Below, piece after piece: positions 20,709 to 43,210 of a DNA stretch of 64,000 nt. The notes under the pieces are model-generated. The model saw only the letters and a program-made list of their open reading frames with translations, was not told where the DNA came from and made no database searches. Every line of letters starts with the position of its first letter. Position 1 is the first letter of the stretch. Where the stretch lies: contig JBEKAC010000005.1 in assembly GCA_050018395.1 (NCBI GenBank), forward strand, positions 4,794 through 68,793. Direction: 5' to 3'. A program made the translations under genes and the position numbers. Source of the DNA: Dehalococcoidales bacterium (lineage in GTDB: Bacteria; Chloroflexota; Dehalococcoidia; Dehalococcoidales; RBG-16-60-22).

Positions 20709-20765
20709 TCCGGCTCAAGACCCCGATTGAATTCTCGTCCACATTCGATTATAATTTAAGAACAG

Positions 20766-20914
20766 TATCCGCTAGGGGTGCTCTGGCTGAGATGTCCCGA
20801 TATTATCGGGACGACCCTTGGAACCTGACCTCGGTAATACGAGCGTAGGGAAGCGGCGTAAACCAGAACCAGGGTTCGAGCGCTTCTAGCCGATATCCCT
20901 GGTTTTATTATTTT
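20766..20914 (+). promoter_or_regulatory. TPP (THI-box) riboswitch with a terminator-type expression platform
   Basis: ctaggggtgctctggctgagat...acccttggaacctgacctcggtaatacgagcgtagggaagcgg matches the THI-box consensus; then the aaccaggg/ccctggtt stem plus ttttattatttt, directly upstream of thiC. Confidence 0.9.
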
Positions 20915-30170: not shown

Positions 30171-30620
30171 ATGAATATTAAAACGGTAGCGAACAACCGC
30201 AAGGTTTTCCACAATTATTACGTGGGAGAGACGTTCGAGGCCGGCATCGCCCTGCTTGGTTCGGAAATAAAGTCTATCCGGGACGTGCGGGTGAGCCTTA
30301 GTGATGCTTACGTCAAACCGGAAAAGGGTGAGATGTGGCTGGTGAATGCGCATATCGCCCGGTACGCGGCGTCCAGCTATATGGGACATGATCCCACACG
30401 GCCGCGTAAGCTGCTGCTGCACCGGAAAGAAATTTTGAACCTCACCGGCAAGGTGGCGGAAAAGGGGTTGACGCTGGTAGCTACTAAAGTGTATCTCAAG
30501 GGAGGCCGGGCCAAAGTGGAAATAGCGCTGGCCAGGGGCAAAAAGCTCTATGATAAGCGTGAGGCCATCAGCCGCCGCGAGACGGACAGGGAGATGGAAC
30601 GGGCGATTAAAAGCCGCTAG
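30171..30620 (+). CDS. smpB: SsrA-binding protein
   Basis: 149 aa; NRKVFHNYYV...GSEIKSIR...LLLHRKEI...KLYDKRE pattern. Confidence 0.95.
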   Translation: MNIKTVANNRKVFHNYYVGETFEAGIALLGSEIKSIRDVRVSLSDAYVKPEKGEMWLVNAHIARYAASSYMGHDPTRPRKLLLHRKEILNLTGKVAEKGLTLVATKVYLKGGRAKVEIALARGKKLYDKREAISRRETDREMERAIKSR

Positions 30621-30639: not shown

Positions 30640-30989
30640 GGGGACGCGTGGTTTCGACAGGGGAAGTGCGCTATAGGAACGCAAGCAGAGGTGCCGCTCC
30701 CTCTTTAAACCGGTGGCAAAAAACAACTGCCGAACCAGTAATGGTTGCAGCCTAATTAACTAGGTTGCCATCCAACCTGACCTCACCCCGACGGGTCAGG
30801 ATTGGGTGCCGCAAAGTGGGGGTGCCGCTGCCCTGATGCCGGTATGGGCAGTGAAAGATTATCGGCTGGCCCGGCCCAACTCGGTCGGTTGAGGTGGGCG
30901 GGGCGAGACAAAAAGAGCCGACTAAGCTTGTAGTAAGTCCTGGACAGCTTCTTCTGGACGGGGAGTTCGACTCTCCCCCGTCTCCACCA
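30640..30989 (+). ncRNA. ssrA: tmRNA (ssrA), one-piece
   Basis: 5' ggggacgcgtggtttcgacagggg and 3' ggacggggagttcgactctcccccgtctccacca tRNA-like ends; candidate tag frame at 30729-30755 (GCC GAA CCA GTA ATG GTT GCA GCC TAA = AEPVMVAA). Confidence 0.9.
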
Positions 30990-31230: not shown

Positions 31231-31361
31231 TTATCCCAAATGGATATTTTGGTAAGCTTTCGGAGTGAATTTGGACCTCGCAGTGCTAAGAAAAGGAGCC
31301 TACGTGACAGGACACTGCCATCTTCTTTACTTACTTATTGGCGCGTAGCGTTTTCAGACCT

Positions 31362-31583
31362 ATGCATAAACGTATCAAAATAAAAGATGTTGCCGAGTAT
31401 TGTATGGTGAGCAGGACTACTGTACGCAGATGGATTGACGGCGGGAAATTGCAGGCGCTCAGGCTGCCCAGTGGTCATTATCGAATCAGACAAGTGGATT
31501 ACAGGCATTTTCTTGAGAACTGTGGGATTCCTCTTAAGGAAAGCGCCTTTGCGTCCAAATATGAAAGAAAGGAGAAAAACTAA
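31362..31583 (+). CDS. excisionase/MerR-type helix-turn-helix DNA-binding protein at the head of the gvp cluster
   Basis: [38 protein letters not shown] is the excisionase-family HTH pattern; stop is 2 nt before the gvpA ATG. Confidence 0.65.
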
Positions 31584-31585
31584 AA

Positions 31586-31792
31586 ATGGCAGTACAGACT
31601 TCGATGGCGTCATCGGGACTGGCTGAGGTCCTGGACCGGATACTGGACAAGGGCCTCGTACTCGATGCCTGGGTCAGGGTTTCCCTGCTTGGCCTGGAAA
31701 TCCTTACTATTGAAGCCAGGGTTGTCCTGGCTGGCGTCGAGACCTACCTGAAGTATGCTGAAGCTATTGGCCTTACGGCTACAGCCGCCTAA
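31586..31792 (+). CDS. gvpA: gas vesicle major structural protein
   Basis: 68 aa; [54 protein letters not shown] is canonical GvpA. Confidence 0.95.
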
Positions 31793-31880
31793 AAATTTGG
31801 GAGCGATTTTGCCAAGGTACCCTTGGCTAACGAAGTGCACCTTGCCAACGTCTCTCCCCTGGCTTAATGAGGATAAAAAT

Positions 31881-32552
31881 ATGGAACCAGTTTTAAACCT
31901 TATCACCTCTTATGAAAACAGAATTGCCACGGTGGAAGAATTGATGACAACGGCTTACCAGGCCACGATGACTTCCGATGGTAGCTTCGATGTTCTCGAT
32001 GGGGAGAGAGAAAGACTGAAAATCGGTCTGCAGAAAACATTGACAAAAAACTGCTCTTTACGCAGAAAGGACTTTACCCGGCTTATGGAAAGAGTACTTT
32101 CTGATTCAGATAAGAAAAAGATCGCCATCCAGGAAGAGCAAATTCGGGTTAGAGAAAAAGTCAGAGAATACCTGGATGAACAAAAACAGCTCTCGAAATA
32201 CCTGCGGCAGAAGTTAGTCGAATTAGCACAAGAAAAGGCGGATAAAAGTAGTCTCGACACAGTTATCACTAACATCAGGGACATGTATGAGAATAAGGGC
32301 CAGCAGCTCTTTGTAATATTTCGTGAATTCCAACAGCGTTTAAAAATCTTTCAGAGGGAGCAAGAGGAAATCAATTTCAAACTGCAGAGACTTGTGGATA
32401 GAGGCGAATCCTTGAGTCTGGAAGACCTGAGGCAGCTGGAAACAACTGAAGCTCTCCAGAAGAGAACGACAGAACGAGAGTTGCGGCGTGGAGAAGTGGA
32501 AAGGTTACTGTCTCATTTTAAGCAGCAACGGCAGGAAAGCCGCCGCCATTAG
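31881..32552 (+). CDS. coiled-coil hypothetical protein (gvp cluster, no known family)
   Basis: 223 aa from ATG 31881 (gagga RBS); charged heptad-rich sequence. Confidence 0.5.
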   Translation: MEPVLNLITSYENRIATVEELMTTAYQATMTSDGSFDVLDGERERLKIGLQKTLTKNCSLRRKDFTRLMERVLSDSDKKKIAIQEEQIRVREKVREYLDEQKQLSKYLRQKLVELAQEKADKSSLDTVITNIRDMYENKGQQLFVIFREFQQRLKIFQREQEEINFKLQRLVDRGESLSLEDLRQLETTEALQKRTTERELRRGEVERLLSHFKQQRQESRRH

Positions 32553-32588
32553 CGGTAAAAATATTACATTTTAGGCAGGAGGACAAAG

Positions 32589-33530
32589 ATGGGGATTGCT
32601 TACGAGATGAAAAAACTTACCCGTGACATTGCTTCTTCCCATAAAGATCGGACGAAAAATATCCATCAAATAGGAGAAGAGGTAAAACGGACCAGGGTTC
32701 ATGCCCGGAATCTGGTCCATGGCTTTAAGAGCTCTCGACAGGAGACCAGCCGGCAGCTGATAAGAGATTTAGCCCGGGATAAAACAGGTAGAACGTCTGA
32801 AGTCAAAGCTATTTTAAAGGATTCTCAAGTTTTCCTGAAAGACTTTAAAGACTCTCAGAAAATTACTAATGCCCGTTTGAGAAAAGATTTATCTGCGGGT
32901 ACGGCCAAAAGACTGTCTGAAGTGCAAATGACCTTGGAAGACGTCCACAAACTAATAAGAAGATTCCACTCATCTCTTCAGGAAGTGAGTTATCAATTAA
33001 AGAAAGACCTGGGTGAGAACCGGGCAGAAGTCAAGTCCGAGGTAGAAAAACTGATTGGGGATGCCCAAAATCTGGTAACAGATTTCCACACCGCCCGTAA
33101 ACAGGCGGGTGGACAACTGAGGGAAGGCATGGCTCAGGACAGAGCTCATTTGGGGTCAGAGGTAAAACAGATGAGAAGTGACTTCCGTGAAGCTTGTGGA
33201 AGTTTGAGAGCCGATCTTAAAGAAGTAAGAGATGCATGGCAGGGTTTAGCGGCCATGATACAAACCAGGATGGGCGTGACGGCACGTCCCCCGGCGGCAA
33301 TCCTCCCGGAGGCGAAGGCGCCTGCAGCCAAACAGGGAAACTCAGACCTGGAGACAAAGTTGCTGGCGACCGTCAACGGGTACCCTGCAGGAGGAATATC
33401 CCTGGCTGATTTATCCGGTATCCTCAGGGTAGCTCCTGTCGTATTGGGACGGGCTTCAAAGGGGCTCATTAATAAGCGAACAATCCGTAAAAAGGGAAAA
33501 CTCTACTTTCCGGTTTCCAGCGGAAACTAG
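32589..33530 (+). CDS. 40-aa tandem-repeat protein with a C-terminal winged-helix-like domain; candidate GvpC-type shell-binding protein
   Basis: 313 aa; four clear repeats plus one degenerate 40-residue repeat (aa 28-227); C-terminal LLATVNGYPAGGISLADLSGILRVAPVVLGRASKGLINKRTIRKKGKLYFP. Confidence 0.55.
   Translation: MGIAYEMKKLTRDIASSHKDRTKNIHQIGEEVKRTRVHARNLVHGFKSSRQETSRQLIRDLARDKTGRTSEVKAILKDSQVFLKDFKDSQKITNARLRKDLSAGTAKRLSEVQMTLEDVHKLIRRFHSSLQEVSYQLKKDLGENRAEVKSEVEKLIGDAQNLVTDFHTARKQAGGQLREGMAQDRAHLGSEVKQMRSDFREACGSLRADLKEVRDAWQGLAAMIQTRMGVTARPPAAILPEAKAPAAKQGNSDLETKLLATVNGYPAGGISLADLSGILRVAPVVLGRASKGLINKRTIRKKGKLYFPVSSGN
32670..33269 (+). repeat. 5 x 120-nt (40-aa) in-frame tandem repeats inside the 32589-33530 CDS
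   Basis: Units: IGEEVKRTRVHARNLVHGFKSSRQETSRQLIRDLARDKTG / RTSEVKAILKDSQVFLKDFKDSQKITNARLRKDLSAGTAK / RLSEVQMTLEDVHKLIRRFHSSLQEVSYQLKKDLGENRAE / VKSEVEKLIGDAQNLVTDFHTARKQAGGQLREGMAQDRAH / LGSEVKQMRSDFREACGSLRADLKEVRDAWQGLAAMIQTR. Confidence 0.7.
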
Positions 33531-33598
33531 GCGGCCCAGGGATTAAATAGCGGCCTCTGCGGCAGGCGAGGAGGCTATTAAAAACAGCGAGGGATATT

Positions 33599-34036
33599 AT
33601 GCCGAGCGAAGCTCTGAGAAACATCAGAACGATGCGTCAGATTAAGTCCAGTCTTGAACTGGTTAAAAACCGGAGAGTCAGGACCACTAACTCGCTGTCT
33701 AAAACGGACGGCGAAATATCGCACCTGAAATCTTTGACTGACGGGCAGGTGGAACAGGTTCTGGCCAAAGAGAGAAAACGCTTTGCGGCCCGCGAGGCAG
33801 CGGTTGATAAATCACGGCAGCGGTTGCTTAAGGCAAGGGATAAACTGGCGGCGACCATCAATAAGAACCGAGCACTGACCGAATTGAGACATCAGCTGCA
33901 GCAGGTGCCTATAGAAAGAAAGAGCCTCGTACCGGAAAAGGCGTTGGTGCCAGCTCAAAAACCGAAACCTCCGACTCGTAAGAAAATAGTGCGAACTCGA
34001 AAACCGAAACTACGCCAGGTAAAGCTTAAATATTAA
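33599..34036 (+). CDS. coiled-coil protein with a Lys/Arg/Pro-rich tail (gvp cluster, no known family)
   Basis: 145 aa; C-terminal KPKPPTRKKIVRTRKPKLRQVKLKY. Confidence 0.45.
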   Translation: MPSEALRNIRTMRQIKSSLELVKNRRVRTTNSLSKTDGEISHLKSLTDGQVEQVLAKERKRFAAREAAVDKSRQRLLKARDKLAATINKNRALTELRHQLQQVPIERKSLVPEKALVPAQKPKPPTRKKIVRTRKPKLRQVKLKY

Positions 34037-34112
34037 ACCGCAGTATATACTCGTTGATTATTGAACGAAACGTTGCAGGCGAGTGACGCCAGCTAATTAA
34101 GAAGGCAGATAG

Positions 34113-35054
34113 ATGACTACGATGCAGGGAGAACCCGCCACGGTGCTCAGCACTCAACCGAGCATTGATTTTGTGGAAACGCCCTATATCACGAATCTTA
34201 CCAACCGGGCGCTCGATTACATCAGAGCGGGTTTCCCCATCCATCTCAGTGGACCGGCGGGGGTCGGTAAAACGACTCTGGCCATGCACATCGCCGCCCG
34301 GCTGGAGCGTCCTGTAGTGCTGGTCTGCGGCGACCATGAATTCGGCAGCTCCGACCTGATTGGCGGGCTTTCCGGCTATCATAAGAAATTTTTAAGGGAT
34401 AACTATATCCACTCGGTGCTCAGGACTGACGAGAGTATGACCTCGCAATGGGTGGACAGCCGGCTCACCACTGCCTGTCAATACGGGCTCACTCTCATCT
34501 ACGACGAGTTTACCCGCTCACGGCCGGAAGCCAATAACGTGCTGCTTTCCGTATTGGAAGAAAAGCTCCTGCCACTGCCTACCACCCGGGGCGGCGAGAA
34601 TTATTTAAAAGTGCATCCCGATTTTACCGCTATCTTCACATCTAATCCCGAGGAATACGCCGGGGTTTTTAAAAGTCCGGACGCGCTACGCGATAGGATG
34701 GTGACCATCGAACTGGGCAACTTCGACGAAGAAACGGAAATCGCAATTACTCGGTCCAAGGCCAAACTTTCTGCGGAGCAGGCACAATTTGTCGTCAGCC
34801 TGGTGAGGAAGGTAAGGGAGGCTAAGTCTGATAACCGGCTTATCCCCACCGTCCGGGGCTGTATTATCATCGGCAAGATACTAAACCAAAAAGGCGGGGC
34901 CACTAATAACGGCTTTAAACAAATTTGTCTTGATGTTTTAATGCCCGAAGTTTCCATAAAAGACAGGGAAAAGGTCAGTCAGGTAATAGATGAAGCTCTG
35001 CCTGGCTCTCCCCGGATGGAGGTAAATTATGCCCAAAAAAGAAAAAAACGGTAA
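34113..35054 (+). CDS. gvpN: gas vesicle AAA+ ATPase
   Basis: 313 aa; LSGPAGVGKTTLAMHIA Walker A, LIYDEFTRS Walker B; MoxR/GvpN-like. Confidence 0.85.
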   Translation: MTTMQGEPATVLSTQPSIDFVETPYITNLTNRALDYIRAGFPIHLSGPAGVGKTTLAMHIAARLERPVVLVCGDHEFGSSDLIGGLSGYHKKFLRDNYIHSVLRTDESMTSQWVDSRLTTACQYGLTLIYDEFTRSRPEANNVLLSVLEEKLLPLPTTRGGENYLKVHPDFTAIFTSNPEEYAGVFKSPDALRDRMVTIELGNFDEETEIAITRSKAKLSAEQAQFVVSLVRKVREAKSDNRLIPTVRGCIIIGKILNQKGGATNNGFKQICLDVLMPEVSIKDREKVSQVIDEALPGSPRMEVNYAQKRKKR

Positions 35055-35544
35055 GGTTGATGTTGATTTCGGCATGGGCCAGATAAGCCTGGGGGGATTG
35101 TTCAAGGGGCTGGGCAATTTCATGGACCTTGCCTCCAAATTAAGCGAAGAAGGGTATGAGAAAAAGGGTGAGATCAGCGGCTTGCCTAAAGGGGCTAAAG
35201 GGGTTTATGGCTTTAGTATCAGGACGCTGGCAGGTAAGCCGGTAATCGAGAGCTTTGGGAACATTAAGGAAACGGCCAGGGGGCCGGTGGTGGAAGAGGT
35301 CCGGGAACCGATGGTTGATATTTTTAATGAAAAAGACCGCATCCTAGTTATTGCCGAGTTACCCGGCATAGCGGAGAGCGAAATTAAAATCGAGGTAAAC
35401 GGGGATATCCTTAATCTGTCGGCGGCCGGTAGAGACCGGAAATACGCCAGGGAAGTCCTCCTCCCCGCCAGGGTTAAACCGGACTCACTAAAGAGTTCCT
35501 ATAAGAATGGGATTTTAGAAATCACCCTGGAAAAAGAAAAATAG
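35029..35544 (+). CDS. Hsp20/alpha-crystallin-domain protein (GvpH-like), paralog 1
   Basis: 171 aa; [27 protein letters not shown]...[14 protein letters not shown]; overlaps the gvpN end by 26 nt. Confidence 0.8.
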
Positions 35545-35561
35545 CCGGAGGAGATATTTTC

Positions 35562-37700
35562 GTGAGTGTTGCTATTGCGGTCGTGACTCTGCGCGTGGCT
35601 GAAGCAAAACCCCGGGACGTGGGGCGGGGTATCGCCCGGATTGACCCCCGGGACCTGGAAAAACTGGGCGCCGAGGTGGGCGATATTATTCAGGTGGAAG
35701 GCAAACGGAAGACGGCCGCCAAGGTCATGCCGGCCTATGCGGAAGACCGGGGAAAGTCGCTCATCCAGATAGACGGGCTTTTGCGGGGTAATGCCCAGGT
35801 CTCTCTGGATGAAAAGGTCACGGTGCAAAAGGCCAGCTTTTTACCGGCTGAAAAGATAGTACTCAACCCGCTGACTCTGGTGAGGTCCATCAGCCAGGAG
35901 AGAGACGCTAAGTATATCGGCACTTTATTGGACGGGCTGCCGCTGGTAGAGGGGGACACTATCAGGGCCAACCTCTTCGGCACCCGGAGCCAGGATTTTA
36001 CCGTGATCAGCTCTATCCCCAGGGGCCTGGTGCTGGTGCATGCCCGGACCAAAATAGAGGTTAAAGAGAAGACTGAACCTAGGGTTAAAGACTCCAAAAT
36101 ATCCTACGAAGATATCGGCGGTCTGGGAAAAGAATTGCACCGGATAAGAGAGATGGTTGAGCTGCCTCTCAAGTATCCTCAGATATTTGAACGTCTAGGA
36201 ATAGACCCTCCCAAGGGAGTGCTCCTTCATGGCCCTCCCGGGTGCGGCAAAACGCTGATTGCCCGCGCCGTGGCCAATGAAACAGCGGCTTATTTTACCC
36301 ATATCACCGGCCCGGAGATAATGGGCAAGTTTTACGGGGAGAGTGAAGGGCGGCTCCGGGCTGTCTTTGAAGAAGCCAAAAACAACGCCCCCGCCATTCT
36401 TTTCATTGATGAAATCGACGCCATTGCCCCCAAAAGGGAAGAGATGGGCGGCGAGAAGCAGGTGGAAAGAAGGGTGGTGGCCCAGCTGCTGGCCCTCATG
36501 GACGGACTGGAATCAAGGGGCGAGGTAATTGTCATCGGGGCCACCAATATCCCCAACTCTCTCGACCCGGCGCTGCGGCGGCCCGGCCGGTTCGACCGCG
36601 AGATCGCCATCAGCATCCCCGACCATAAAGGGCGCCTGGATATCCTCCAGATTCACACCCGGGGCATGCCCCTGGCGCAGGATGTCGACCTGGAAAGGCT
36701 TTCCCAGATTACTCATGGCTTTGTCGGGGCCGACCTGGAAGCCTTAAGCCGCGAGGCGGCGATGAATGCCCTCAGAAAAATAATGCCCAACATCGATTTT
36801 CAGCTGGACGAGATTCCGTATGAAACTCTCTTGAAACTGGAAGTAACGATGAATGACTTCACCGAGGCGCTTAAAGAGGTGGAACCCTCGGCGATTCGTG
36901 AGGTCTTTGTCGAGGTCCCCAACGTAAGATGGGAGGATGTCGGCGGCCTGGACGAAATGAAACAAAAATTAGTTGAGGCCGTGGAATGGCCGCTACGCTA
37001 TCCTCACCTGTTCCAGGAGGCCAACGTCAATCCTCCTAAAGGTATTCTCCTTTCCGGCTCACCGGGGACGGGAAAGACCCTGGTCGCCAAAGCGCTGGCC
37101 CATGAAAGCGAGGTAAATTTCATCTCGATAAAAGGCCCCGAGCTGATATCAAAATATATCGGCGAATCGGAAAGGGGCGTGAGAGAGATATTCCGGAAAG
37201 CCAAGCAGGCCAGCCCCTGCATTATCTTCTTCGATGAGTTTGATTCACTGGTGCCGGAACGCGGGACCAGCGATAATTCACAGGTTACCGAGAGAGTTAT
37301 CAGCCAGTTCCTCACCGAGCTCGATGGGCTGGAAGAGCTTAAAGGTGTACTGGTCCTGGCGGCTACCAACAGAAAGGACCTCATCGATTCCGCCATCGTG
37401 AGGACGGGCCGGTTTGATTTCACCCTGGAGTTCTCCTTACCTGATGAAAAGGCCCGTCGGGAAATATTTGGCATTCATGCCAGGGGCAAACCCCTCGCTC
37501 CTGACATCAATCTGGAAGTCATGGCCCAGAAAACAGAAGGTCTGGCGGGTTCGGATATCGAGGTCATCTGCCGCGAAGCCGCCATGATAGCTATCAGGAC
37601 GTTTATCAAAAATGAAGACAAGAAAGGCAAACTCAAAATTACCAGGCAGCATTTTGAAATGGCCATTGATTGGTTAAAAGCACAGAAAGGGGAAGAATAA
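35562..37700 (+). CDS. CDC48/VCP/VAT-type double-ring AAA+ ATPase
   Basis: 712 aa, GTG start. N-domain is [37 protein letters not shown]. Two AAA modules: [25 protein letters not shown] and [25 protein letters not shown]. Confidence 0.9.
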
Positions 37701-38456
37701 GTGTCCGGGCAAAGAAAATATATTTATGGAATTGTTCGGGAACACCAATTCAGGAGATTCGGCTTCACGGGGGTGGGAGAAGCTGATGTCTATACCATCA
37801 ACTGGCAAAAAATAGCTGCCATCGTCAGTGATACCGAGTTTTCGGAGATAGACCCGACCCGCAAGAACGTGCAGGCTCATACCATTGTCCAGGATGAGCT
37901 GTTGAAAGAGTACACCCTGCTCCCCATGAGCTTCGGCATGATTGCTGCCGGCGAAGATGAAGTTACAGGACTGCTGGAGAAGAATTACCAGGGTCTTACC
38001 GGCGAACTGGACCGCCTCGCCGATATGATAGAAGTTGAGCTGAAGCTCTACTGGGAACCGGAGACCATCATTAAAGAGCTGCAAGGTGAGAACCAGGAAC
38101 TATCCAAGATTAAGGCTAAAATAAATACGGCATCGTCGCTCGGGGAAAAACGGAATCTGTTAATCGAAGCCGGCAAACTGGTAGATGACATCGTTCTGGA
38201 CTGGAAGACCAGGTATGCCGGTATGGTTTACAGCGTTCTCTCAGAGCTATCTTCTCAGGCTAAAATGAATAATCCGGTGGGATTAAAGAACCTCCTTAAT
38301 GCCTCGTTCTTGATAGATAAGTCCGGTGAAAGTGAATTTAAAGAACAGGTCTACAAATTGGATGCAAACTTCCTGGGAAAAGTCAATTTTAAATATGTCG
38401 GGCCGATGCCTGCTTATAACTTCATTAATTTAAAGCTGGAGCCGGTAAAGTGTTAA
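37701..38456 (+). CDS. gvpF: GvpF/GvpL-family gas vesicle protein
   Basis: 251 aa; YIYGIV......VYTINWQKIAAIVSD...HTIVQDELLKEYTLLPMSFG pattern; GTG abuts the CDC48 stop. Confidence 0.85.
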   Translation: MSGQRKYIYGIVREHQFRRFGFTGVGEADVYTINWQKIAAIVSDTEFSEIDPTRKNVQAHTIVQDELLKEYTLLPMSFGMIAAGEDEVTGLLEKNYQGLTGELDRLADMIEVELKLYWEPETIIKELQGENQELSKIKAKINTASSLGEKRNLLIEAGKLVDDIVLDWKTRYAGMVYSVLSELSSQAKMNNPVGLKNLLNASFLIDKSGESEFKEQVYKLDANFLGKVNFKYVGPMPAYNFINLKLEPVKC

Positions 38457-38704
38457 CCGGATTACTATTTTCTGTCCTCGGTGTCCCCGTCACTCTTGCC
38501 AAGGAGATAATGGGCAAGCTTAGAGACGAGATTGACAAAGAACGCCTGATTACTGAAGAGTCGATTAAACAGAGACTCCAGCAGCTGCAACTACTGCTGC
38601 GGGACGGCGAGTTGAATGAAGAGGAATACGAAGGCATAGAGGAACAGCTTATAGCCAGGTTGAAGGCAGTAAGGGAATACCAAAAGAGCCAGGAGGTTAA
38701 ATAA
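38450..38704 (+). CDS. gvpG: gas vesicle protein G
   Basis: 84 aa; hydrophobic N-terminus then EEEYEGIEEQLIARLKAV, typical of GvpG; overlaps gvpF by 7 nt. Confidence 0.75.
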   Translation: MLTGLLFSVLGVPVTLAKEIMGKLRDEIDKERLITEESIKQRLQQLQLLLRDGELNEEEYEGIEEQLIARLKAVREYQKSQEVK

Positions 38705-39079
38705 ATGCCATTACAGGCGACGAAGGACGGGGGTAACACACTTGCGGACGTCATCGACCGCGTACTGGACAAGGGACTGATTATCAATGCCGATATCTGT
38801 GTTTCCATAGCCGGCGTTGAACTCCTGGGAATCAAGATACGGGCCGCCCTGGCATCTTTTGAGACAGCTGCCAAATATGGTCTGGAGTTCCCCAGTGGCA
38901 CCAACTATGAAAAAGCCGCCTGGAGGGAAACAGATGTCAGCAGGGAGATATGTCCGCAGTGCAGTAAAAAAGTCGTTACTGAAGAGCTTCTCAATGAGGG
39001 GTGTCCCTGGTGCGGGTGGATCAGCGCTAAGGCTAAAAAAGTTGAAGACAGAATAACACCCAAAATCGTGGCAGAGTAA
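38705..39079 (+). CDS. GvpA/J/M-family protein with a C-terminal CxxC...CxxC zinc ribbon
   Basis: 124 aa; LADVIDRVLDKGLIINADICVSIAGVELLGIKIRAALASFETAAKYG core, then CPQCSKK...GCPWCG. Confidence 0.8.
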   Translation: MPLQATKDGGNTLADVIDRVLDKGLIINADICVSIAGVELLGIKIRAALASFETAAKYGLEFPSGTNYEKAAWRETDVSREICPQCSKKVVTEELLNEGCPWCGWISAKAKKVEDRITPKIVAE

Positions 39080-39097
39080 AAAGGCGGGAACGTTAAA

Positions 39098-39613
39098 ATG
39101 AGCGCCGTGACGGTTAAAACTAAAAAAGGGCTGGACCAGCTCCTTCAGGTTCTGGATGAAAAGAGCCGGGCTATGTTGTGGCATCTGTGGTGGCACCGGC
39201 ATGCCGGTATCTCGGAATTAAGAGAGCTCATTGACGCTGCCAATGATTTTGAAGTTCTTTACCGGTTGAGAGAGGTCATCAACGAACAATCACTGAAGCT
39301 CTGGGGGAGACCGATAGTGAGCTTCGAACAGTCAAGGCTGGACTCCTCAAATGGGGCTATGGTTTTGTTTAGCTGGTGGTTTCTGGATGAAGAGAATGTT
39401 CCCATATCGGGTGGGAACAAACCGCTGGTAGACATATTCTATGAGAAAGACAGCATTTCCATCATCACTCAGGTGCCGACCTCGGTTGACCAGTCGCAAC
39501 GTGAAATATTGTATAAAAACGGTATCTTGAAGGTCCGGCTGGGAAAAAGGAAGAATAGTGGGACAGACAAAGGGAAAAAGCGGGAGGGGAGATTACACCC
39601 GGAACCCGCGTGA
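39098..39613 (+). CDS. hypothetical protein with a shortened Hsp20-like C-terminus (paralog 2)
   Basis: 171 aa; LVDIFYEKDSISIITQVP...ILYKNGILKVRLGK resembles the ends of an alpha-crystallin domain, with the middle missing. Confidence 0.5.
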   Translation: MSAVTVKTKKGLDQLLQVLDEKSRAMLWHLWWHRHAGISELRELIDAANDFEVLYRLREVINEQSLKLWGRPIVSFEQSRLDSSNGAMVLFSWWFLDEENVPISGGNKPLVDIFYEKDSISIITQVPTSVDQSQREILYKNGILKVRLGKRKNSGTDKGKKREGRLHPEPA

Positions 39614-40124
39614 AAAACAGTCGGAAGGCCCGGTGGAAGGCGTCCTTCGCGGTCTGGATGAGGTTATTCCCGGCTTCGGCGAGGTGGTAAAGGGGCTGGA
39701 AAAATCGGAAGCCTTTCAAAAAAGACTGGAAACCGCCAATGCCGAGGTGGAGCGCCGCCTGGGAAAAGCCCCTCTATCAAGCGGGGCGGTTAGCTCGAGA
39801 AGAGCTCCCTTTCAGGCCGGAAGAGCTTTGAAAATAAACCGGTCCGCGCCCGGTAAAGAATCACCGGTGCCATCATCGCCACGGGATGTGAATGCAGATA
39901 TATTTGACGAAGGTGACAACCTCGTAATCATCGCCGAGTTGCCCGGTGTAGATGAAAAGGACATCAAGATCGCGGTCAAAGAGAACCGGCTTAAGCTCTT
40001 TGCCCGGAGCCAGAGCCGCCAGTATAACAGGGAAATAGTCTTGCCTTGTAGCGTCAAAGAAAAACCGGGTTTGACTTATAAAAACGGGATTTTGAAAATC
40101 AGCCTGGAAAAGGAACCGAAATAG
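39558..40124 (+). CDS. Hsp20/alpha-crystallin-domain protein (GvpH-like), paralog 3
   Basis: DIFDEGDNLVIIAELPGVDEKDIKIAV...LTYKNGILKISLEK; the true start may be GTG 39633 (ggaagg RBS) rather than GTG 39558. Confidence 0.7.
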   Translation: MGQTKGKSGRGDYTRNPREKQSEGPVEGVLRGLDEVIPGFGEVVKGLEKSEAFQKRLETANAEVERRLGKAPLSSGAVSSRRAPFQAGRALKINRSAPGKESPVPSSPRDVNADIFDEGDNLVIIAELPGVDEKDIKIAVKENRLKLFARSQSRQYNREIVLPCSVKEKPGLTYKNGILKISLEKEPK

Positions 40125-40130
40125 GAGCCT

Positions 40131-40457
40131 ATGGCTATTAATATCGATGAGAATAACCTGAAACAAGGCGTACTGGGGCTGGTCATAGCCCTGGTGGAGG
40201 TAATCAAAGACACCCTGAAAATCCAGGCATTTAAAAGGATGGAGGGCGGAAGCTTAAGCGAGGAAGAATGCGAGCGGCTGGGAAAAGCTTTGATGGACCT
40301 GGATAACGCCCTGGAAGAAATCAAGACCGAACAGGGCATCATCGAATCGGTTCAGTCCGTGAGAGATGGGCTGGATGAGATTGTGGATGGCGTTATCGAT
40401 AGGATAGTAAATCCGGAAAAATGGCGGGATGAAGCCAAAAAAAGCCTGCCGGTTTAA
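40131..40457 (+). CDS. gvpK: gas vesicle protein K
   Basis: 108 aa; LKQGVLGLVIALVEVIKDTLKIQAFKRMEGGSLSEEECERLGKALMDLD is GvpK-like. Confidence 0.85.
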   Translation: MAINIDENNLKQGVLGLVIALVEVIKDTLKIQAFKRMEGGSLSEEECERLGKALMDLDNALEEIKTEQGIIESVQSVRDGLDEIVDGVIDRIVNPEKWRDEAKKSLPV

Positions 40458-40489
40458 TCGGGGAAAAGAACCTCTTGGGAGGCATATAA

Positions 40490-41656
40490 ATGGAAGAGAT
40501 ATTCTACGCTGTACTGGCACTGCGCACCGCCGGTAAGCCGGTCAATAAAGCGACAATACAGGCCGTGCTAAACCAGGCCGGCAAACAGGTTGACGAGACA
40601 GCCCTTGATGCTATGGCCGCCTTTGTTGAATCTTTAGCGAATGCCAGCGAGGGAAAAGAAGGAGCCATGGACCCCAGAATTATTAAGTTTCTGACCAGCG
40701 AACTAACGGGACATAAAGTGGAAACAACGCAGCTGGAGGCGCTTCTTGCCAAACTCAGCACGGCCGCTGCATCAGTTCCGGAGACTCTGAACGGTCACCT
40801 TGATACAGCACCGGAGGCGCAGGCCGGAGCCGCGGATGTGGAGTCTGAATCCCGCATTCACAGTAAAGGACGGTATGTCTATGGCGTGGCGATGGGGGAT
40901 AAGGAGGTCCGGCTGGGGCCGATAGGTATAGGGGGCAGCGAGGTTTACACTATCCCTTATAAAGACATCAGAGCGATCGTTCACAATTGCTCTACTGAGC
41001 CGTATCAGTCTACAGATGGCGCAACGGTAAAGGACTGGGTGAATATCCACGAAGGCGTTCTCGAAGCGGCCGGTGAACGACTTGGTATCGTTGTCCCCCT
41101 GGGCTTCGATACAATATTACAGTCAAAAGATGGCAGCACTTCCCCGGAAAATGTGGTAAACGACTGGCTCAAGGAGGATTATGACCGCCTTCGGGAGGTG
41201 ATGAGAAAGATAGAGGGTAAAGCTGAGTATGGAGTTCAGGTTTCCTATAAACTAAGTTTAGTCATTGAGCAGATATCGGAAAAGAGCGAAGAAATTAGAA
41301 GAATCAAGGAAGAGATAGCCACCAAATCCCCGGGTGTGGCTTATATGTATAAACAAAAGCTGGAAAGAGCCGTTAAGGCAGAGACCGAGCAGCTGGCCAA
41401 TGCCTGGTTCACCGATTTCTACACCAGGATTAAACCGCACACCGAGGATATCATCGTCGAGAAGACTAAAAAGCTGAATGATGGCAAAACAATGCTGCTT
41501 AACCTCTCCTGCCTGGTAGCCAGGGATAAAGTCGATAGCCTGGGTAAGGAATTGGAGGCTATCAATAATATGAACGGCTTCTCCGTTCACTTTTCCGGGC
41601 CCTGGCCGCCCTACAGCTTTGTGGCCAAACCCGTTGTTTTAGTTAAAGGAGAATAA
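40490..41656 (+). CDS. gvpL: GvpF/GvpL-family protein with an N-terminal archaeal ribosomal stalk P1/L12-like domain
   Basis: 388 aa; the N-terminal MEEIFYAVLALRTAGKPVNKATIQAVLNQAGKQVDETALDAMAAFVESL resembles archaeal L12/P1; from about aa 125 GRYVYGVA...VYTIPYKDIRAIVHN... is GvpF/L-like. Confidence 0.8.
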   Translation: MEEIFYAVLALRTAGKPVNKATIQAVLNQAGKQVDETALDAMAAFVESLANASEGKEGAMDPRIIKFLTSELTGHKVETTQLEALLAKLSTAAASVPETLNGHLDTAPEAQAGAADVESESRIHSKGRYVYGVAMGDKEVRLGPIGIGGSEVYTIPYKDIRAIVHNCSTEPYQSTDGATVKDWVNIHEGVLEAAGERLGIVVPLGFDTILQSKDGSTSPENVVNDWLKEDYDRLREVMRKIEGKAEYGVQVSYKLSLVIEQISEKSEEIRRIKEEIATKSPGVAYMYKQKLERAVKAETEQLANAWFTDFYTRIKPHTEDIIVEKTKKLNDGKTMLLNLSCLVARDKVDSLGKELEAINNMNGFSVHFSGPWPPYSFVAKPVVLVKGE

Positions 41657-41657
41657 A

Positions 41658-42014
41658 ATGCAGCCTACCCGGGACACTCATGCCACACTGGTAGACCTAC
41701 TCGATAGGGTACTGGAAAAGGGGCTGGTCCTTAATGCTGACCTGCTTATTAATGTCGCCGGCATTCCCCTCCTGGGGGTTAATTTGAGGGCCTGCCTGGC
41801 CGGGGTAGAGACCATGCTGAAATACGGCGTCTGGCAGGACTGGGATGCAGCCCAAAGGTCAATCGCCAACAAGGAGCGACAGCCTAAAAGGGCCAAAGAA
41901 CCAATAAGTGTTTCAGAATTGATACCGGAGCAAAATACTCCGTCTTCTCTATACAGGAAAACAGCCGCGGAATTTATAATAAATGAGGAGGCGAAAATCC
42001 AAGATGAACGCTAA
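41658..42014 (+). CDS. GvpA/J/M-family gas vesicle protein
   Basis: 118 aa; LVDLLDRVLEKGLVLNADLLINVAGIPLLGVNLRACLAGVETMLKYG. Confidence 0.8.
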   Translation: MQPTRDTHATLVDLLDRVLEKGLVLNADLLINVAGIPLLGVNLRACLAGVETMLKYGVWQDWDAAQRSIANKERQPKRAKEPISVSELIPEQNTPSSLYRKTAAEFIINEEAKIQDER

Positions 42015-42258
42015 TCAGGTAGTAGAAAAAGCGCGTAAAGAGTTTATCGGACTGGGTAAGAAGCCGACCGATGGGATTACCGGCCTTGCCAAGACGAAGG
42101 AAGGGTGGTCCATCCAGATAGAGTCACTGGAAAGGAAGGCCATTCCTGATACCATGGATGTGCTGGGTTTGTATGAACTCCGCATGGATGACGAAGGCCA
42201 TCTTCTCGGCCTTGACAGGAAGAAGCTGCGCAAGCGCGGCGAAACACATGAAGAGTGA
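42004..42258 (+). CDS. gvpO: gas vesicle protein O
   Basis: 84 aa from ATG 42004; GITGLAKTKEGWSIQIESLERKAIPDTMDVLGLYELRMDDEGHLLGLDRKKLRKRG fits the GvpO pattern. Confidence 0.75.
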   Translation: MNANQVVEKARKEFIGLGKKPTDGITGLAKTKEGWSIQIESLERKAIPDTMDVLGLYELRMDDEGHLLGLDRKKLRKRGETHEE

Positions 42259-42272
42259 AAGGAAAGTGCCAG

Positions 42273-42473
42273 ATGACAGAATGGAACAAGTGCCCGGGAT
42301 GCGGAAGCACTATCAGCGGTGACTCTGATTTCTGCCCGAATTGCGGAGAACCGTGGACCATCAAGTGTCCGGGTTGTGGCATGATACAGCGTTTCTGGAA
42401 AATGCATAAATTTTGTCACAATTGTGGCACGCGGATGGAATTGCATGGCGTCGTTAAGAGCCACCGGAAGTAG
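42273..42473 (+). CDS. double zinc-ribbon protein
   Basis: 66 aa; CPGCG...CPNCG...CPGCG...CHNCG; gaaaggaaag RBS; start could be GTG 42255. Confidence 0.55.
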   Translation: MTEWNKCPGCGSTISGDSDFCPNCGEPWTIKCPGCGMIQRFWKMHKFCHNCGTRMELHGVVKSHRK

Positions 42474-42520
42474 CTTGGTTTTGTGACGGATCTCATGCCC
42501 GAATATGCACCGGATAAGTG

Positions 42521-43210
42521 ATGAAAAAACTGTTTATTATTCCTATCATCCATATGAGTGCCGATATGGGTTCGGTGGCTTTAGCTCTGGATGAAGCGGC
42601 AGGTGCCAGGCTGACGCCGGAACTGTGGCAGAAGCACAAAGAAATCGTATCCGTTTTCTGGGATTCCATCGGACGATTTTTCGATTCTCTACAAGTCAGC
42701 GGTTTTAAAGTCTATCAGGATGGGGTCTTCGTTGACGGCGAAGAAGGAAATAGAATCATCAGGGAGGGCATCAAGCAGGGGAGTAAAAATTACGAGATTG
42801 TGGGCAGGCTTCTGGATAGAGGCGCCGTCCTGGTAAAAACCGAGTCTCTCCCCCTGGTAAAACAAGAATACAGCTATATCACCAAAATGACCCGCTCTAA
42901 ATCGTTAAAAGAAAAGGAAGTCGCTGCTCTCAGGTACAAACTGGCCCGGGGTAAACTGTTAAAGCAAAGGGATGAATTCATCGCCGGAAGAATCAATGAG
43001 ACCCTGGCTAAAGGTGAAACCGGTATCCTTTTCATCGGGGCATATCACGATGTTATCCGCAAACTGGCTTCTGAAATAAAAGTATCTCAGGTTAAAGAGG
43101 TTGCCCGGGTTAAGGACTACTATAATCAACTAATAAAAGCCAGGCGGTATGACAAATACCTCCAAAATCTCGGGGAGTATCTCACCTCGCCCGTTTCCGG
43201 CGTGTCATAA
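42521..43210 (+). CDS. hypothetical protein, last gene of the gvp cluster; weak TraB/Tiki-like GxxH pattern
   Basis: 229 aa; LFIIPIIHMS near the N-terminus and ILFIGAYHDV near the C-terminus. Confidence 0.45.
   Translation: MKKLFIIPIIHMSADMGSVALALDEAAGARLTPELWQKHKEIVSVFWDSIGRFFDSLQVSGFKVYQDGVFVDGEEGNRIIREGIKQGSKNYEIVGRLLDRGAVLVKTESLPLVKQEYSYITKMTRSKSLKEKEVAALRYKLARGKLLKQRDEFIAGRINETLAKGETGILFIGAYHDVIRKLASEIKVSQVKEVARVKDYYNQLIKARRYDKYLQNLGEYLTSPVSGVS

What the first reader, a model, noticed from the sequence alone, without database searches (positions are those of the whole stretch)
40490..41656. Archaeal/eukaryotic ribosomal-stalk P1 (aL12)-like domain fused to a GvpF/L protein in a bacterium
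The first ~55 aa are MEEIFYAVLALRTAGKPVNKATIQAVLNQAGKQVDETALDAMAAFVESL. They follow the N-terminal dimerisation domain of archaeal L12/P1 as I remember it (ME.IYAALLL.SAGKEI.E.N.KAVLEAAG.EVDE.R.KALVAAL).

A ~70-aa linker follows, and then a full GvpF/L domain (GRYVYGVA...VYTIPYKDIRAIVHN...).

Bacteria use the unrelated bL12. A P1-type helical hairpin here is therefore unexpected. It suggests a recruited dimerisation or docking module, and possibly an archaeal origin for part of the cluster.
Basis: partly seen in the sequence, partly recalled or inferred. Interest (0 to 1): 0.7.

Follow-up and report, generated by a model that had tools for sequence, protein, structure and literature searches.

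The report
Ribosomal-stalk P1 domain fused to GvpL
A gas-vesicle assembly protein (GvpL) of Dehalococcoidia bacteria carries at its front end a conserved copy of the dimerisation domain of the archaeal ribosomal stalk protein P1. This domain is otherwise known only from archaeal and eukaryotic ribosomes, and here it most likely serves to pair up or anchor GvpL.

Summary
ORF 40490-41656 (+) encodes a 388-aa protein with four parts:
- aa 1-55 are homologous to the N-terminal dimerisation domain of archaeal ribosomal protein P1. The match to PDB 3A1Y has E 7.8e-5 for the single sequence and 2.5e-8 for a family profile. hhalign against archaeal P1 gives 97.8%, E 8.8e-13. In an exhaustive search of 1.84 billion proteins, nearly all hits outside the family were archaeal P1.
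- aa 61-95 are two conserved, family-specific helices.
- aa 96-125 are a hypervariable, disordered, acidic linker (dN/dS about 0.8).
- aa 126-380 are a GvpL/GvpF fold (Pfam E 4e-59; Foldseek E 1e-13 to GvpF crystal structures).

The P1-like part is under purifying selection as strong as GvpL itself (dN/dS about 0.09 against 0.11). P1's factor-binding C-terminal tail is absent.

The fusion occurs in at least 118 sequence clusters. The ten genome loci retrieved are all syntenic gvp clusters, mostly in Dehalococcoidia MAGs. The host is bacterial (SmpB plus tmRNA). IMG's pipeline already labels some copies "ribosomal protein L12E/RPP1/RPP2". I found no paper describing the fusion.

The most likely role is a recruited homodimerisation or anchoring module that tethers two GvpL hub domains. 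This role is inferred, not shown. It is a new variant of a known kind and of moderate interest.

The parts
40477..40482 (+). Shine-Dalgarno-like GGGAGG, 7 nt upstream of the ATG. An in-frame TAA at 40487-40489 blocks any upstream extension of the ORF.
   Evidence: Read directly from the sequence and the ORF list.
40490..41656 (+). Complete CDS of the P1-NTD::GvpL fusion protein (388 aa plus stop).
   Evidence: The identical protein is called on 9 independent metagenome contigs and equals P0063, 'GvpL/GvpF family gas vesicle protein [Dehalococcoidales bacterium]'.
40490..40654 (+). aa 1-55: domain homologous to the N-terminal dimerisation domain of archaeal ribosomal stalk protein P1 (helices 2-13, 20-29, 36-53/55).
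   Evidence: TIGR03685 E 1.7e-6. PDB 3a1y_A E 7.8e-5 for the single sequence and 2.5e-8 for the profile. hhalign 97.8%, E 8.8e-13. Exhaustive search returns archaeal P1. AlphaFold pLDDT 80-88. dN/dS 0.09.
40670..40774 (+). aa 61-95: two conserved helices (62-74, 79/80-94) specific to this fusion family, containing the motif DPRIIKFLTSEL. The first helix may stand in for P1 helix 4.
   Evidence: 61% mean pairwise identity, with D61, R63 and L72 invariant. dN/dS 0.18. pLDDT 57-74. No Pfam family matches this segment in its own right; two weak, far sub-threshold matches merely run across it.
40775..40864 (+). aa 96-125: hypervariable, disordered linker rich in Glu, Ala, Pro and Thr.
   Evidence: Length is 30-66 aa in 40 relatives, with 21% identity and composition E 17%, A 15%. 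pLDDT is below 50 over aa 93-124. dN/dS 0.78.
40865..41629 (+). aa 126-380: GvpL/GvpF domain.
   Evidence: Pfam PF06386 E 4.3e-59. NCBIfam GvpL E 5.9e-49. Foldseek matches to GvpF crystal structures 6l5d_B at E 1e-13 and 4qsg at E 2e-11. pLDDT about 90.
31338..43210 (+). The surrounding gas-vesicle gene cluster, in order: HTH regulator, GvpA, three unknown genes, GvpN, Hsp20, CDC48-family AAA ATPase, GvpF, GvpG, GvpJ, an Hsp20-like unknown, Hsp20/GvpH-like, GvpK, P1-GvpL, GvpM-like, GvpO, double zinc ribbon, and one unknown.
   Evidence: Pfam and NCBIfam scans. The cluster is syntenic in 10 genome loci and in the JGI contigs.

Best explanation
The gene encodes a GvpL, the hub protein of the accessory gas-vesicle assembly complex. 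An ancestor of a Dehalococcoidia lineage acquired for it the N-terminal helical dimerisation domain of an archaeal-type ribosomal stalk protein P1.

The protein keeps the design of a stalk protein: a small helical oligomerisation or anchor domain, then a flexible acidic hinge, then a functional C-terminal unit. The factor-binding tail of P1 is replaced by a whole GvpL domain.

The most likely mechanism is that the P1-like domain, possibly together with the two family-specific helices at aa 61-95, forms a homodimer as P1 does. Two GvpL domains would then be held together on flexible tethers of 30-66 residues. This would raise the valency and local concentration of binding sites for the small Gvp proteins (F, G, H-like, J, K, M) during gas-vesicle nucleation or growth.

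Shown here: the homology, the domain layout, the selective constraint, the distribution and the gene context. Inferred: dimerisation and its effect on assembly. The protein has no role on the ribosome.
For: Homology of aa 3-49 to P1 helices 1-3 is gap-free and significant by four independent routes. The top full-length hit outside the fusion family, P0026, is named 50S ribosomal protein P1 of Archaeoglobaceae.

In P1/P2 this domain is the dimerisation domain and also binds P0 (PMC7768734). Helices 1, 2 and 4 form the dimer interface (PMC3794596).

The module is as constrained as the GvpL domain: 75% against 71% pairwise identity, and dN/dS 0.09 against 0.11. The linker is nearly neutral (dN/dS 0.78), varies in length and is predicted disordered.

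The P1 C-terminal factor-binding motif is absent in 40 of 40 fusions.

The fusion is full-length in 118 of the 120 best database clusters and in 10 of 10 genome loci, always inside the same gvp cluster between gvpK and a gvpM-like gene.

In Halobacterium, GvpL binds all the other accessory Gvp proteins and is proposed to act as a platform (PMC7688916). Changing its valency is therefore a plausible selectable function.
Against: No experiment or multimer prediction shows dimerisation. The tools here predict single chains only.

The counterpart of P1 helix 4, which is part of the P1 dimer interface, is not clearly alignable. hhalign confidence fades after about aa 50, and the segment aa 51-60 is variable.

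The structural match of the N-terminal model to 3a1y is top-ranked but weak (E 0.65).

P1 dimers are normally stabilised on P0. No P0-like partner was found in the cluster.
Confidence: 0.6

Rival explanations
1. The P1-like domain is a docking module rather than only a self-association module. As P1 dimers clamp the C-terminal spine helices of P0, it would clamp an amphipathic helix of another protein of the cluster and so anchor GvpL to that partner. Candidate partners are the conserved unknown proteins at 31755-32552, 32589-33530, 33599-34036, 39098-39613 and 42518-43210, or the CDC48-type ATPase.
For: In archaea the same domain is required for binding aP0 as well as for dimerisation (PMC7768734). 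Five conserved proteins of unknown function and a CDC48-family ATPase co-occur with the fusion in the syntenic loci. One of them (32589-33530) is a long amphipathic-helix protein.
Against: No cluster protein shows any P0, uL10 or Ribosomal_60s signal, even at a permissive E-value. No interaction data exist. The extra helices at aa 61-95 could occupy the equivalent surface in cis.
Confidence: 0.22
2. The P1-like domain targets GvpL to the ribosome, for example to the stalk base or uL10. GvpL could then capture the very hydrophobic GvpA, GvpJ and GvpM chains co-translationally.
For: Only the ancestry of the domain and the aggregation-prone nature of the GvpA-family proteins (inference). GvpL binds GvpJ and GvpM in Halobacterium.
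Against: Bacteria have uL10/bL12, not P0. By established knowledge of the stalk, the P1 N-terminal domain binds P0-specific helices. The GTPase-binding tail is absent. Nothing in the window points to a P0-like protein.
Confidence: 0.04
3. The resemblance is a chance or convergent match of a generic helical segment, or the N-terminal region is not part of the protein because of a wrong start or an assembly artefact.
For: Pfam Ribosomal_60s is below its gathering score. A weak DnaB_N match also appears (E 0.0026-0.04). Foldseek for the N-terminal domain is not significant on its own.
Against: E-values of 2.5e-8 (PDB profile) and 8.8e-13 (hhalign), with a gap-free 47-residue alignment at 36-51% identity. 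The exhaustive search of 1.84e9 proteins returns almost only P1 beyond the family. The ORF has a ribosome-binding site and an in-frame stop just upstream. The same fusion appears in more than 100 independent clusters, with dN/dS 0.09.
Confidence: 0.02

Closest known systems
Archaeal ribosomal stalk protein aP1 (L12P; PDB 3A1Y; TIGR03685; Pfam PF00428 Ribosomal_60s; COG2058)
   Same: The N-terminal helical domain. Residues 3-49 align without gaps to aP1 residues 2-48, with 17/47 identities to P. horikoshii P1 and 19/47 to an Archaeoglobaceae P1 (24/47 for the family consensus). The helix boundaries match. The overall logic is also shared: a helical domain followed by a flexible linker rich in Glu, Ala and Pro.
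   Different: The conserved C-terminal factor-binding peptide (GLxxLFG) is missing. A 255-aa GvpL domain takes its place, and two extra conserved helices follow the domain. The protein is encoded in a bacterium that should have uL10/bL12 rather than P0. Scores are below the curated family cut-offs. It is not a ribosomal protein.
GvpL / GvpF gas-vesicle accessory proteins (Pfam PF06386; NCBIfam NF045778; crystal structures 4QSG and 6L5D)
   Same: The C-terminal 255 aa have the GvpL/GvpF sequence signature and fold. The gene sits between gvpK and a gvpM-like gene in a complete gvp cluster, as gvpL does in the haloarchaeal gvpFGHIJKLM operon.
   Different: The NCBIfam GvpL model matches from about aa 126 (model position 1), so the first 125 aa lie outside it. 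The 125-aa N-terminal extension, made of the P1-like domain, two helices and the linker, is restricted to this clade. The second paralogue in the same cluster (GvpF, 37701-38456, 251 aa) lacks it.
Bacterial stalk protein bL12
   Same: It is analogous in design only: an N-terminal dimerisation domain, a flexible hinge and a functional C-terminal domain.
   Different: It is unrelated in sequence. No bL12 family appeared in the Pfam scan at E up to 10.

Membership tests
Ribosomal stalk protein P1/P2/aP1 (PF00428, TIGR03685) | N-terminal helical dimerisation domain homologous to P1 helices 1-3(4) | tested here: met
   TIGR03685 aa 3-48 at E 1.7e-6. 3a1y_A at E 7.8e-5 and 2.5e-8. hhalign 97.8%. Helices 1-3 are clearly matched; helix 4 is uncertain.
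Ribosomal stalk protein P1/P2/aP1 (PF00428, TIGR03685) | Score above the curated family cut-off | tested here: not met
   Pfam gives 15.5-19.4 bits against a cut-off of 28.1. TIGR03685 gives 23.7-28.3 bits against a cut-off of 100.
Ribosomal stalk protein P1/P2/aP1 (PF00428, TIGR03685) | Conserved C-terminal peptide that binds translational GTPases (GLxxLFG/D) | tested here: not met
   The motif is absent in 40 of 40 fusion proteins. The C-terminus reads ...PYSFVAKPVVLVKGE.
Ribosomal stalk protein P1/P2/aP1 (PF00428, TIGR03685) | Flexible Ala/Pro/Glu-rich hinge after the N-terminal domain | tested here: inconclusive
   A disordered, variable linker rich in E, A, P and T is present at aa 96-125. 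It is separated from the P1-like domain by two extra helices, and homology to the P1 hinge cannot be shown.
Ribosomal stalk protein P1/P2/aP1 (PF00428, TIGR03685) | Homodimerises and binds the spine helices of P0 on the ribosome | not testable with these tools
   No multimer prediction or experiment is available. No P0-like protein was found in the cluster. The host is bacterial.
GvpL/GvpF gas vesicle protein family (PF06386) | Pfam GvpL_GvpF domain above the gathering score | tested here: met
   200.9 bits against a cut-off of 23.6, E 4.3e-59, aa 127-378 covering profile positions 1-244 of 245.
GvpL/GvpF gas vesicle protein family (PF06386) | GvpF-type fold | tested here: met
   Foldseek matches 6l5d_B at E 1e-13 with TM 0.80 normalised to the target, and 4qsg at E 2e-11. 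pLDDT is about 90.
GvpL/GvpF gas vesicle protein family (PF06386) | Encoded within a gvp gene cluster | tested here: met
   GvpA, N, F, G, J, K, M-like and O are on the same strand in 31586-42258. The cluster is syntenic in 10 loci.
GvpL equivalog (NCBIfam NF045778) | Score above the equivalog cut-off | tested here: not met
   167.1 bits against a cut-off of 200. It is still much better than the GvpF model at 34.3 bits, so the protein is GvpL-like rather than GvpF-like.
GvpL function (hub of the accessory Gvp complex) | Binds the other accessory Gvp proteins | not testable with these tools
   This is known for Halobacterium GvpL only (PMC7688916).

The most novel reading that the evidence does not exclude
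The fusion reproduces the working principle of the ribosomal stalk in an organelle-assembly machine. A P1-type dimer, possibly several dimers clamped on a helical spine of a still unidentified cluster protein, would carry GvpL heads on long flexible tethers. These heads would gather a local pool of gas-vesicle subunits at the growing seam of the vesicle. Alternatively, the dimer could dock on the ribosome to capture hydrophobic GvpA-family chains as they emerge. Either case would be the first non-ribosomal, bacterial use of the P-stalk anchoring system.
Probability: 0.08. Interest if true: 0.8.

Novelty: new variant of a known kind. Interest (0 to 1): 0.5.

Why it matters
The P1/P2 N-terminal domain is regarded as a ribosome-specific module of archaea and eukaryotes. 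Here it is stably recruited, under strong purifying selection, into a bacterial gas-vesicle protein. That implies inter-domain transfer and re-use of a stalk part as a general oligomerisation or anchor module.

For gas-vesicle biology, the mechanism of GvpL and GvpF and of vesicle nucleation is unresolved. A natural GvpL that is probably dimerised offers a handle for testing whether the valency of the hub protein matters. It also points to a distinctive, unstudied Dehalococcoidia gvp cluster with a CDC48-type ATPase, three Hsp20-like genes and five conserved unknown genes.

For annotation, these proteins are inconsistently named: GvpL/GvpF at NCBI, and ribosomal protein L12E/RPP1/RPP2, hypothetical protein and other unrelated names at IMG.

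Tried and rejected
- The word-index homology search with aa 1-126 alone returned only 9, mostly truncated, relatives. This under-represented the family. The full-length search and the exhaustive profile search corrected it.
- Pfam Ribosomal_60s is sub-threshold. Taken alone it would have suggested no hit.
- Foldseek of the 98-aa N-terminal model ranks the P1 N-terminal domain first but is not significant (E 0.65). I treat it as consistent only.
- The weak DnaB_N, GAP1-C and TPR_IPO5 matches were rejected. They are not reproduced in the PDB or exhaustive searches.
- I looked for a P0-like or other recognisable partner among the unannotated cluster proteins with Pfam at permissive E-values and NCBIfam at E<=0.001. 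Nothing was found, apart from an Hsp20-like C-terminus in 39098-39613 and amphipathic-helix matches in 32589-33530.
- Literature searches combining gas vesicle or GvpL with P1, P-stalk, COG2058, Dehalococcoidia, Chloroflexota or CDC48 found no description of the fusion.
- The paper describing structure 3A1Y is not held in the library. Residue-level comparison of the interface was therefore not possible.
- Models are not exposed as coordinates. I could not examine how helices 62-94 pack on the P1-like domain.
- An archaeal origin of the rest of the cluster was not tested. Hit lists are capped at 120 rows, all of them fusion proteins, so the nearest unfused GvpL could not be seen.

Full report
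**Observation**

An in-frame TAA lies directly upstream and a GGGAGG sits 7 nt before the ATG. The identical protein is called on nine independent metagenome contigs. It is also present in NCBI as a 'GvpL/GvpF family gas vesicle protein' of a Dehalococcoidales MAG (P0063).

**Is the N-terminus really P1-like?**

Pfam's Ribosomal_60s model matches aa 18-47 only below threshold (E 0.0016-0.025, 15.5-19.4 bits against a cut-off of 28.1). The archaeal-specific NCBIfam model TIGR03685 (ribo_P1_arch) aligns aa 3-48 to model positions 2-47 at E 1.7e-6.

A phmmer search of aa 1-70 against all PDB sequences puts the Pyrococcus horikoshii P1 N-terminal domain (3a1y_A) first, at E 7.8e-5, in a gap-free 47-residue alignment. 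A profile of nine N-termini of relatives (A1) raises this to E 2.5e-8, and the next hits are eukaryotic P1 chains.

The same profile was searched with full HMMER sensitivity against 1.84 billion representative proteins and gave 48 hits at E<=1e-3. The first group is the fusion family itself. Almost all the rest are proteins of about 100 aa that begin MEY[IV]YAALLLH. Those that are complete end in GLxALFG, which marks them as archaeal P1. One of them, P0026, is named 50S ribosomal protein P1 of Archaeoglobaceae. Only two hits are obvious repeat-protein false positives.

Profile-profile comparison of A1 with 14 such archaeal P1 sequences gives 97.8% probability and E 8.8e-13. Identity over the 47 aligned residues is 17/47 to P. 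horikoshii P1 and 19/47 to P0026. For the family consensus it is 21/47 and 24/47.

AlphaFold models place helices at 2-13, 20-29 and 36-53/55 with pLDDT 80-88. Foldseek ranks 3a1y_A first, and two eukaryotic stalk chains (4v7e_Cu, named P1; 4v6x_Cs) are the next short-chain matches. The score is not significant by itself (E 0.65, TM 0.62 on the target). I conclude that homology to the P1 N-terminal domain is established by sequence and that the structure is consistent with it.

**Architecture**

An alignment of 40 full-length relatives (A3) and per-region statistics show four parts:

| Region | Mean pairwise identity | Notes |
|---|---|---|
| aa 1-50 | 75% | No length variation |
| aa 61-95 | 61% | Two helices, with invariant D61, R63 and L72 |
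| aa 96-125 | 21% | 30-66 residues long; rich in Glu (17%) and Ala (15%), plus Pro and Thr |
| aa 126-380 | 71% | GvpL domain |

The full-length AlphaFold model has pLDDT below 50 for aa 93-124 and about 90 for the GvpL domain. That domain matches the GvpF crystal structures 6l5d_B (E 1e-13) and 4qsg (E 2e-11), and Pfam GvpL_GvpF at E 4.3e-59.

Nei-Gojobori dN/dS was computed among the window gene and ten genomic homologues. It is 0.09 for the P1-like part, 0.18 for aa 61-95, 0.78 for the linker and 0.11 for GvpL. dS is close to saturation, so the values are rough, but the contrast is clear. The N-terminal module is therefore translated and functionally constrained. P1's C-terminal factor-binding motif is absent from all 40 fusions.

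**Distribution and context**

The full-length search lists 120 best clusters. Of these, 118 are proteins of 388-439 aa covering 97-100% of the query, that is, the same fusion. Names from NCBI place them in Dehalococcoidales, Dehalococcoidia and Chloroflexota. IMG names several, including the window protein itself, 'ribosomal protein L12E/L44/L45/RPP1/RPP2'. An automated pipeline has thus already registered the P1-like domain.

A scan of GTDB species representatives found ten loci, mostly in Dehalococcoidia MAGs. One MAG is labelled Clostridia and two only as bacterium. All ten loci carry complete fusion genes of 389-417 aa.

The NCBIfam GvpL model matches from aa 126 (model position 1), so the first 125 aa lie outside the GvpL model. 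The GvpF paralogue of the same cluster (37701-38456, 251 aa) has no extension.

The window is bacterial. SmpB (30171-30620) and a tmRNA (30640-30989) lie directly upstream of the cluster.

The gvp cluster runs from about 31338 to 43210 on the + strand. In order it encodes: an HTH regulator, GvpA, three unknown proteins, GvpN, Hsp20, a CDC48-family AAA ATPase (961 bits, above the curated cut-off), GvpF, GvpG, GvpJ, an unknown with an Hsp20-like C-terminus, an Hsp20/GvpH-like protein, GvpK, P1-GvpL, a GvpM-like protein, GvpO, a double zinc-ribbon protein and one further unknown. This whole arrangement is syntenic in the ten genome loci.

**How it probably works**

In archaea, aP1 consists of an N-terminal domain that dimerises and binds aP0, a flexible hinge, and a C-terminal peptide that binds translational GTPases (PMC7768734). 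In the human P1-P2 dimer, helices 1, 2 and 4 form the interface (PMC3794596). In Halobacterium, GvpL interacts with all the other accessory Gvp proteins and is proposed to be the platform of an early assembly complex (PMC7688916).

Putting these together, the most economical reading is that the P1-type module makes this GvpL a tethered dimer, or anchors it. The GvpL domain takes the place that the factor-binding tail has in P1.

- Shown: the homology, the layout, the constraint, the context, and the loss of the ribosomal tail.
- Inferred: homodimerisation and its consequence for assembly.

The main rival is that the domain clamps a helix of another cluster protein, as P1 clamps P0. I found no P0-like signal in any cluster protein, but sequence methods would easily miss such a helix. 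A ribosome-tethering role is unlikely, because bacteria lack P0 and the GTPase-binding tail is gone. Chance similarity and a wrong start codon are effectively excluded.

**Comparison with what is known, and novelty**

The protein is a member of the GvpL/GvpF family by domain, fold and context. It falls below the NCBIfam GvpL equivalog cut-off. It is not a member of the ribosomal P1 family: it scores below the curated cut-offs and has no C-terminal motif. It does contain a domain homologous to the P1 N-terminal domain.

Full-text searches combining gas vesicle or GvpL with P1, P-stalk, COG2058, Dehalococcoidia, Chloroflexota or CDC48 found no description of this fusion. The sequences are public and partly auto-annotated.

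I rate it a new variant of a known kind: a GvpL with a recruited archaeal stalk domain. It would be moderately surprising to specialists of either field. An archaeal source is plausible for the P1 module. For the rest of the cluster it remains untested.

**Limits**

No multimer prediction or model coordinates were available. The paper describing 3A1Y is not held. The nearest unfused GvpL could not be seen because hit lists are capped.

Noticed in passing
window 35562-37700 (+): A CDC48-family double-AAA ATPase sits inside the gas-vesicle cluster between an Hsp20 gene and gvpF. It scores 961 bits on TIGR01243, above the cut-off of 802.65, and has a CDC48_N domain. It is conserved in 9 of 10 related loci. 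I found no paper describing such a gene in a gvp cluster.
   Followed up: partly
window 35029-35544, 39098-39613, 39558-40124 (+): The cluster holds three Hsp20/alpha-crystallin-type genes. The middle one is unannotated by Pfam, but its C-terminus matches archaeal Hsp20 (NF041800, E 2.6e-6). ORFs 39098-39613 and 39558-40124 overlap by 56 nt as listed. JGI calls the latter from a later start, giving 163 aa.
   Followed up: partly
window 31755-32552, 32589-33530, 33599-34036, 42518-43210 (+): Four proteins without a family assignment are conserved in most of the Dehalococcoidia gvp loci that reach those positions. 32589-33530 gives only weak apolipoprotein-like and amphipathic-helix matches and could be an outer scaffold analogous to GvpC.
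   Followed up: partly
window 38705-39079 and 41658-42014 (+): The two GvpA-family paralogues match the haloarchaeal GvpJ model (E 6e-29) and GvpM model (E 6e-26) best. The local order K-L-M therefore mirrors the haloarchaeal gvpFGHIJKLM operon.
   Followed up: partly
window 30171-30620 and 30640-30989 (+): SmpB is followed immediately by a tmRNA gene (Rfam RF00023, 169 bits), just upstream of the gvp cluster.
   Followed up: yes
window 20764-20868 (+): A TPP riboswitch (RF00059, 70 bits, E 8e-12).
   Followed up: no
window 31338-31583 (+) and 42255-42473 (+): A small HTH_17/MerR-like regulator lies directly upstream of gvpA. A 72-aa double zinc-ribbon protein follows gvpO. The regulator is found in 4 and the zinc-ribbon protein in 7 of the 10 related loci.
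   Followed up: partly
proteins P0050, P0032, P0044 (metagenomic): Other non-ribosomal proteins carry P1-type N-terminal domains. P0050 (419 aa) has two tandem P1-like domains plus a protein kinase domain. P0032 (203 aa) has two plus a zinc ribbon. P0044 (124 aa) has two weaker copies. P0050 and P0032 have strongly acidic linkers. Their organisms were not determined.
   Followed up: partly
loci L005 and L007: One MAG (Dehalococcoidia SPRUCE 558) carries two different copies of the fusion gene on two contigs, at 70% and 71% identity to the window protein. This means either two gvp clusters or a mixed bin.
   Followed up: no
protein P0024 (407 aa, Logan contig of 1.9 kb): This is a much more divergent member of the fusion family. 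Its N-terminus reads MTELLEDIFYAVIALYLARRQINKQNISLLLEANEVEIDNEALE..., with profile E 2e-8, and it has a full GvpL domain. The fusion clade is therefore broader than the close relatives. The organism is unknown.
   Followed up: partly
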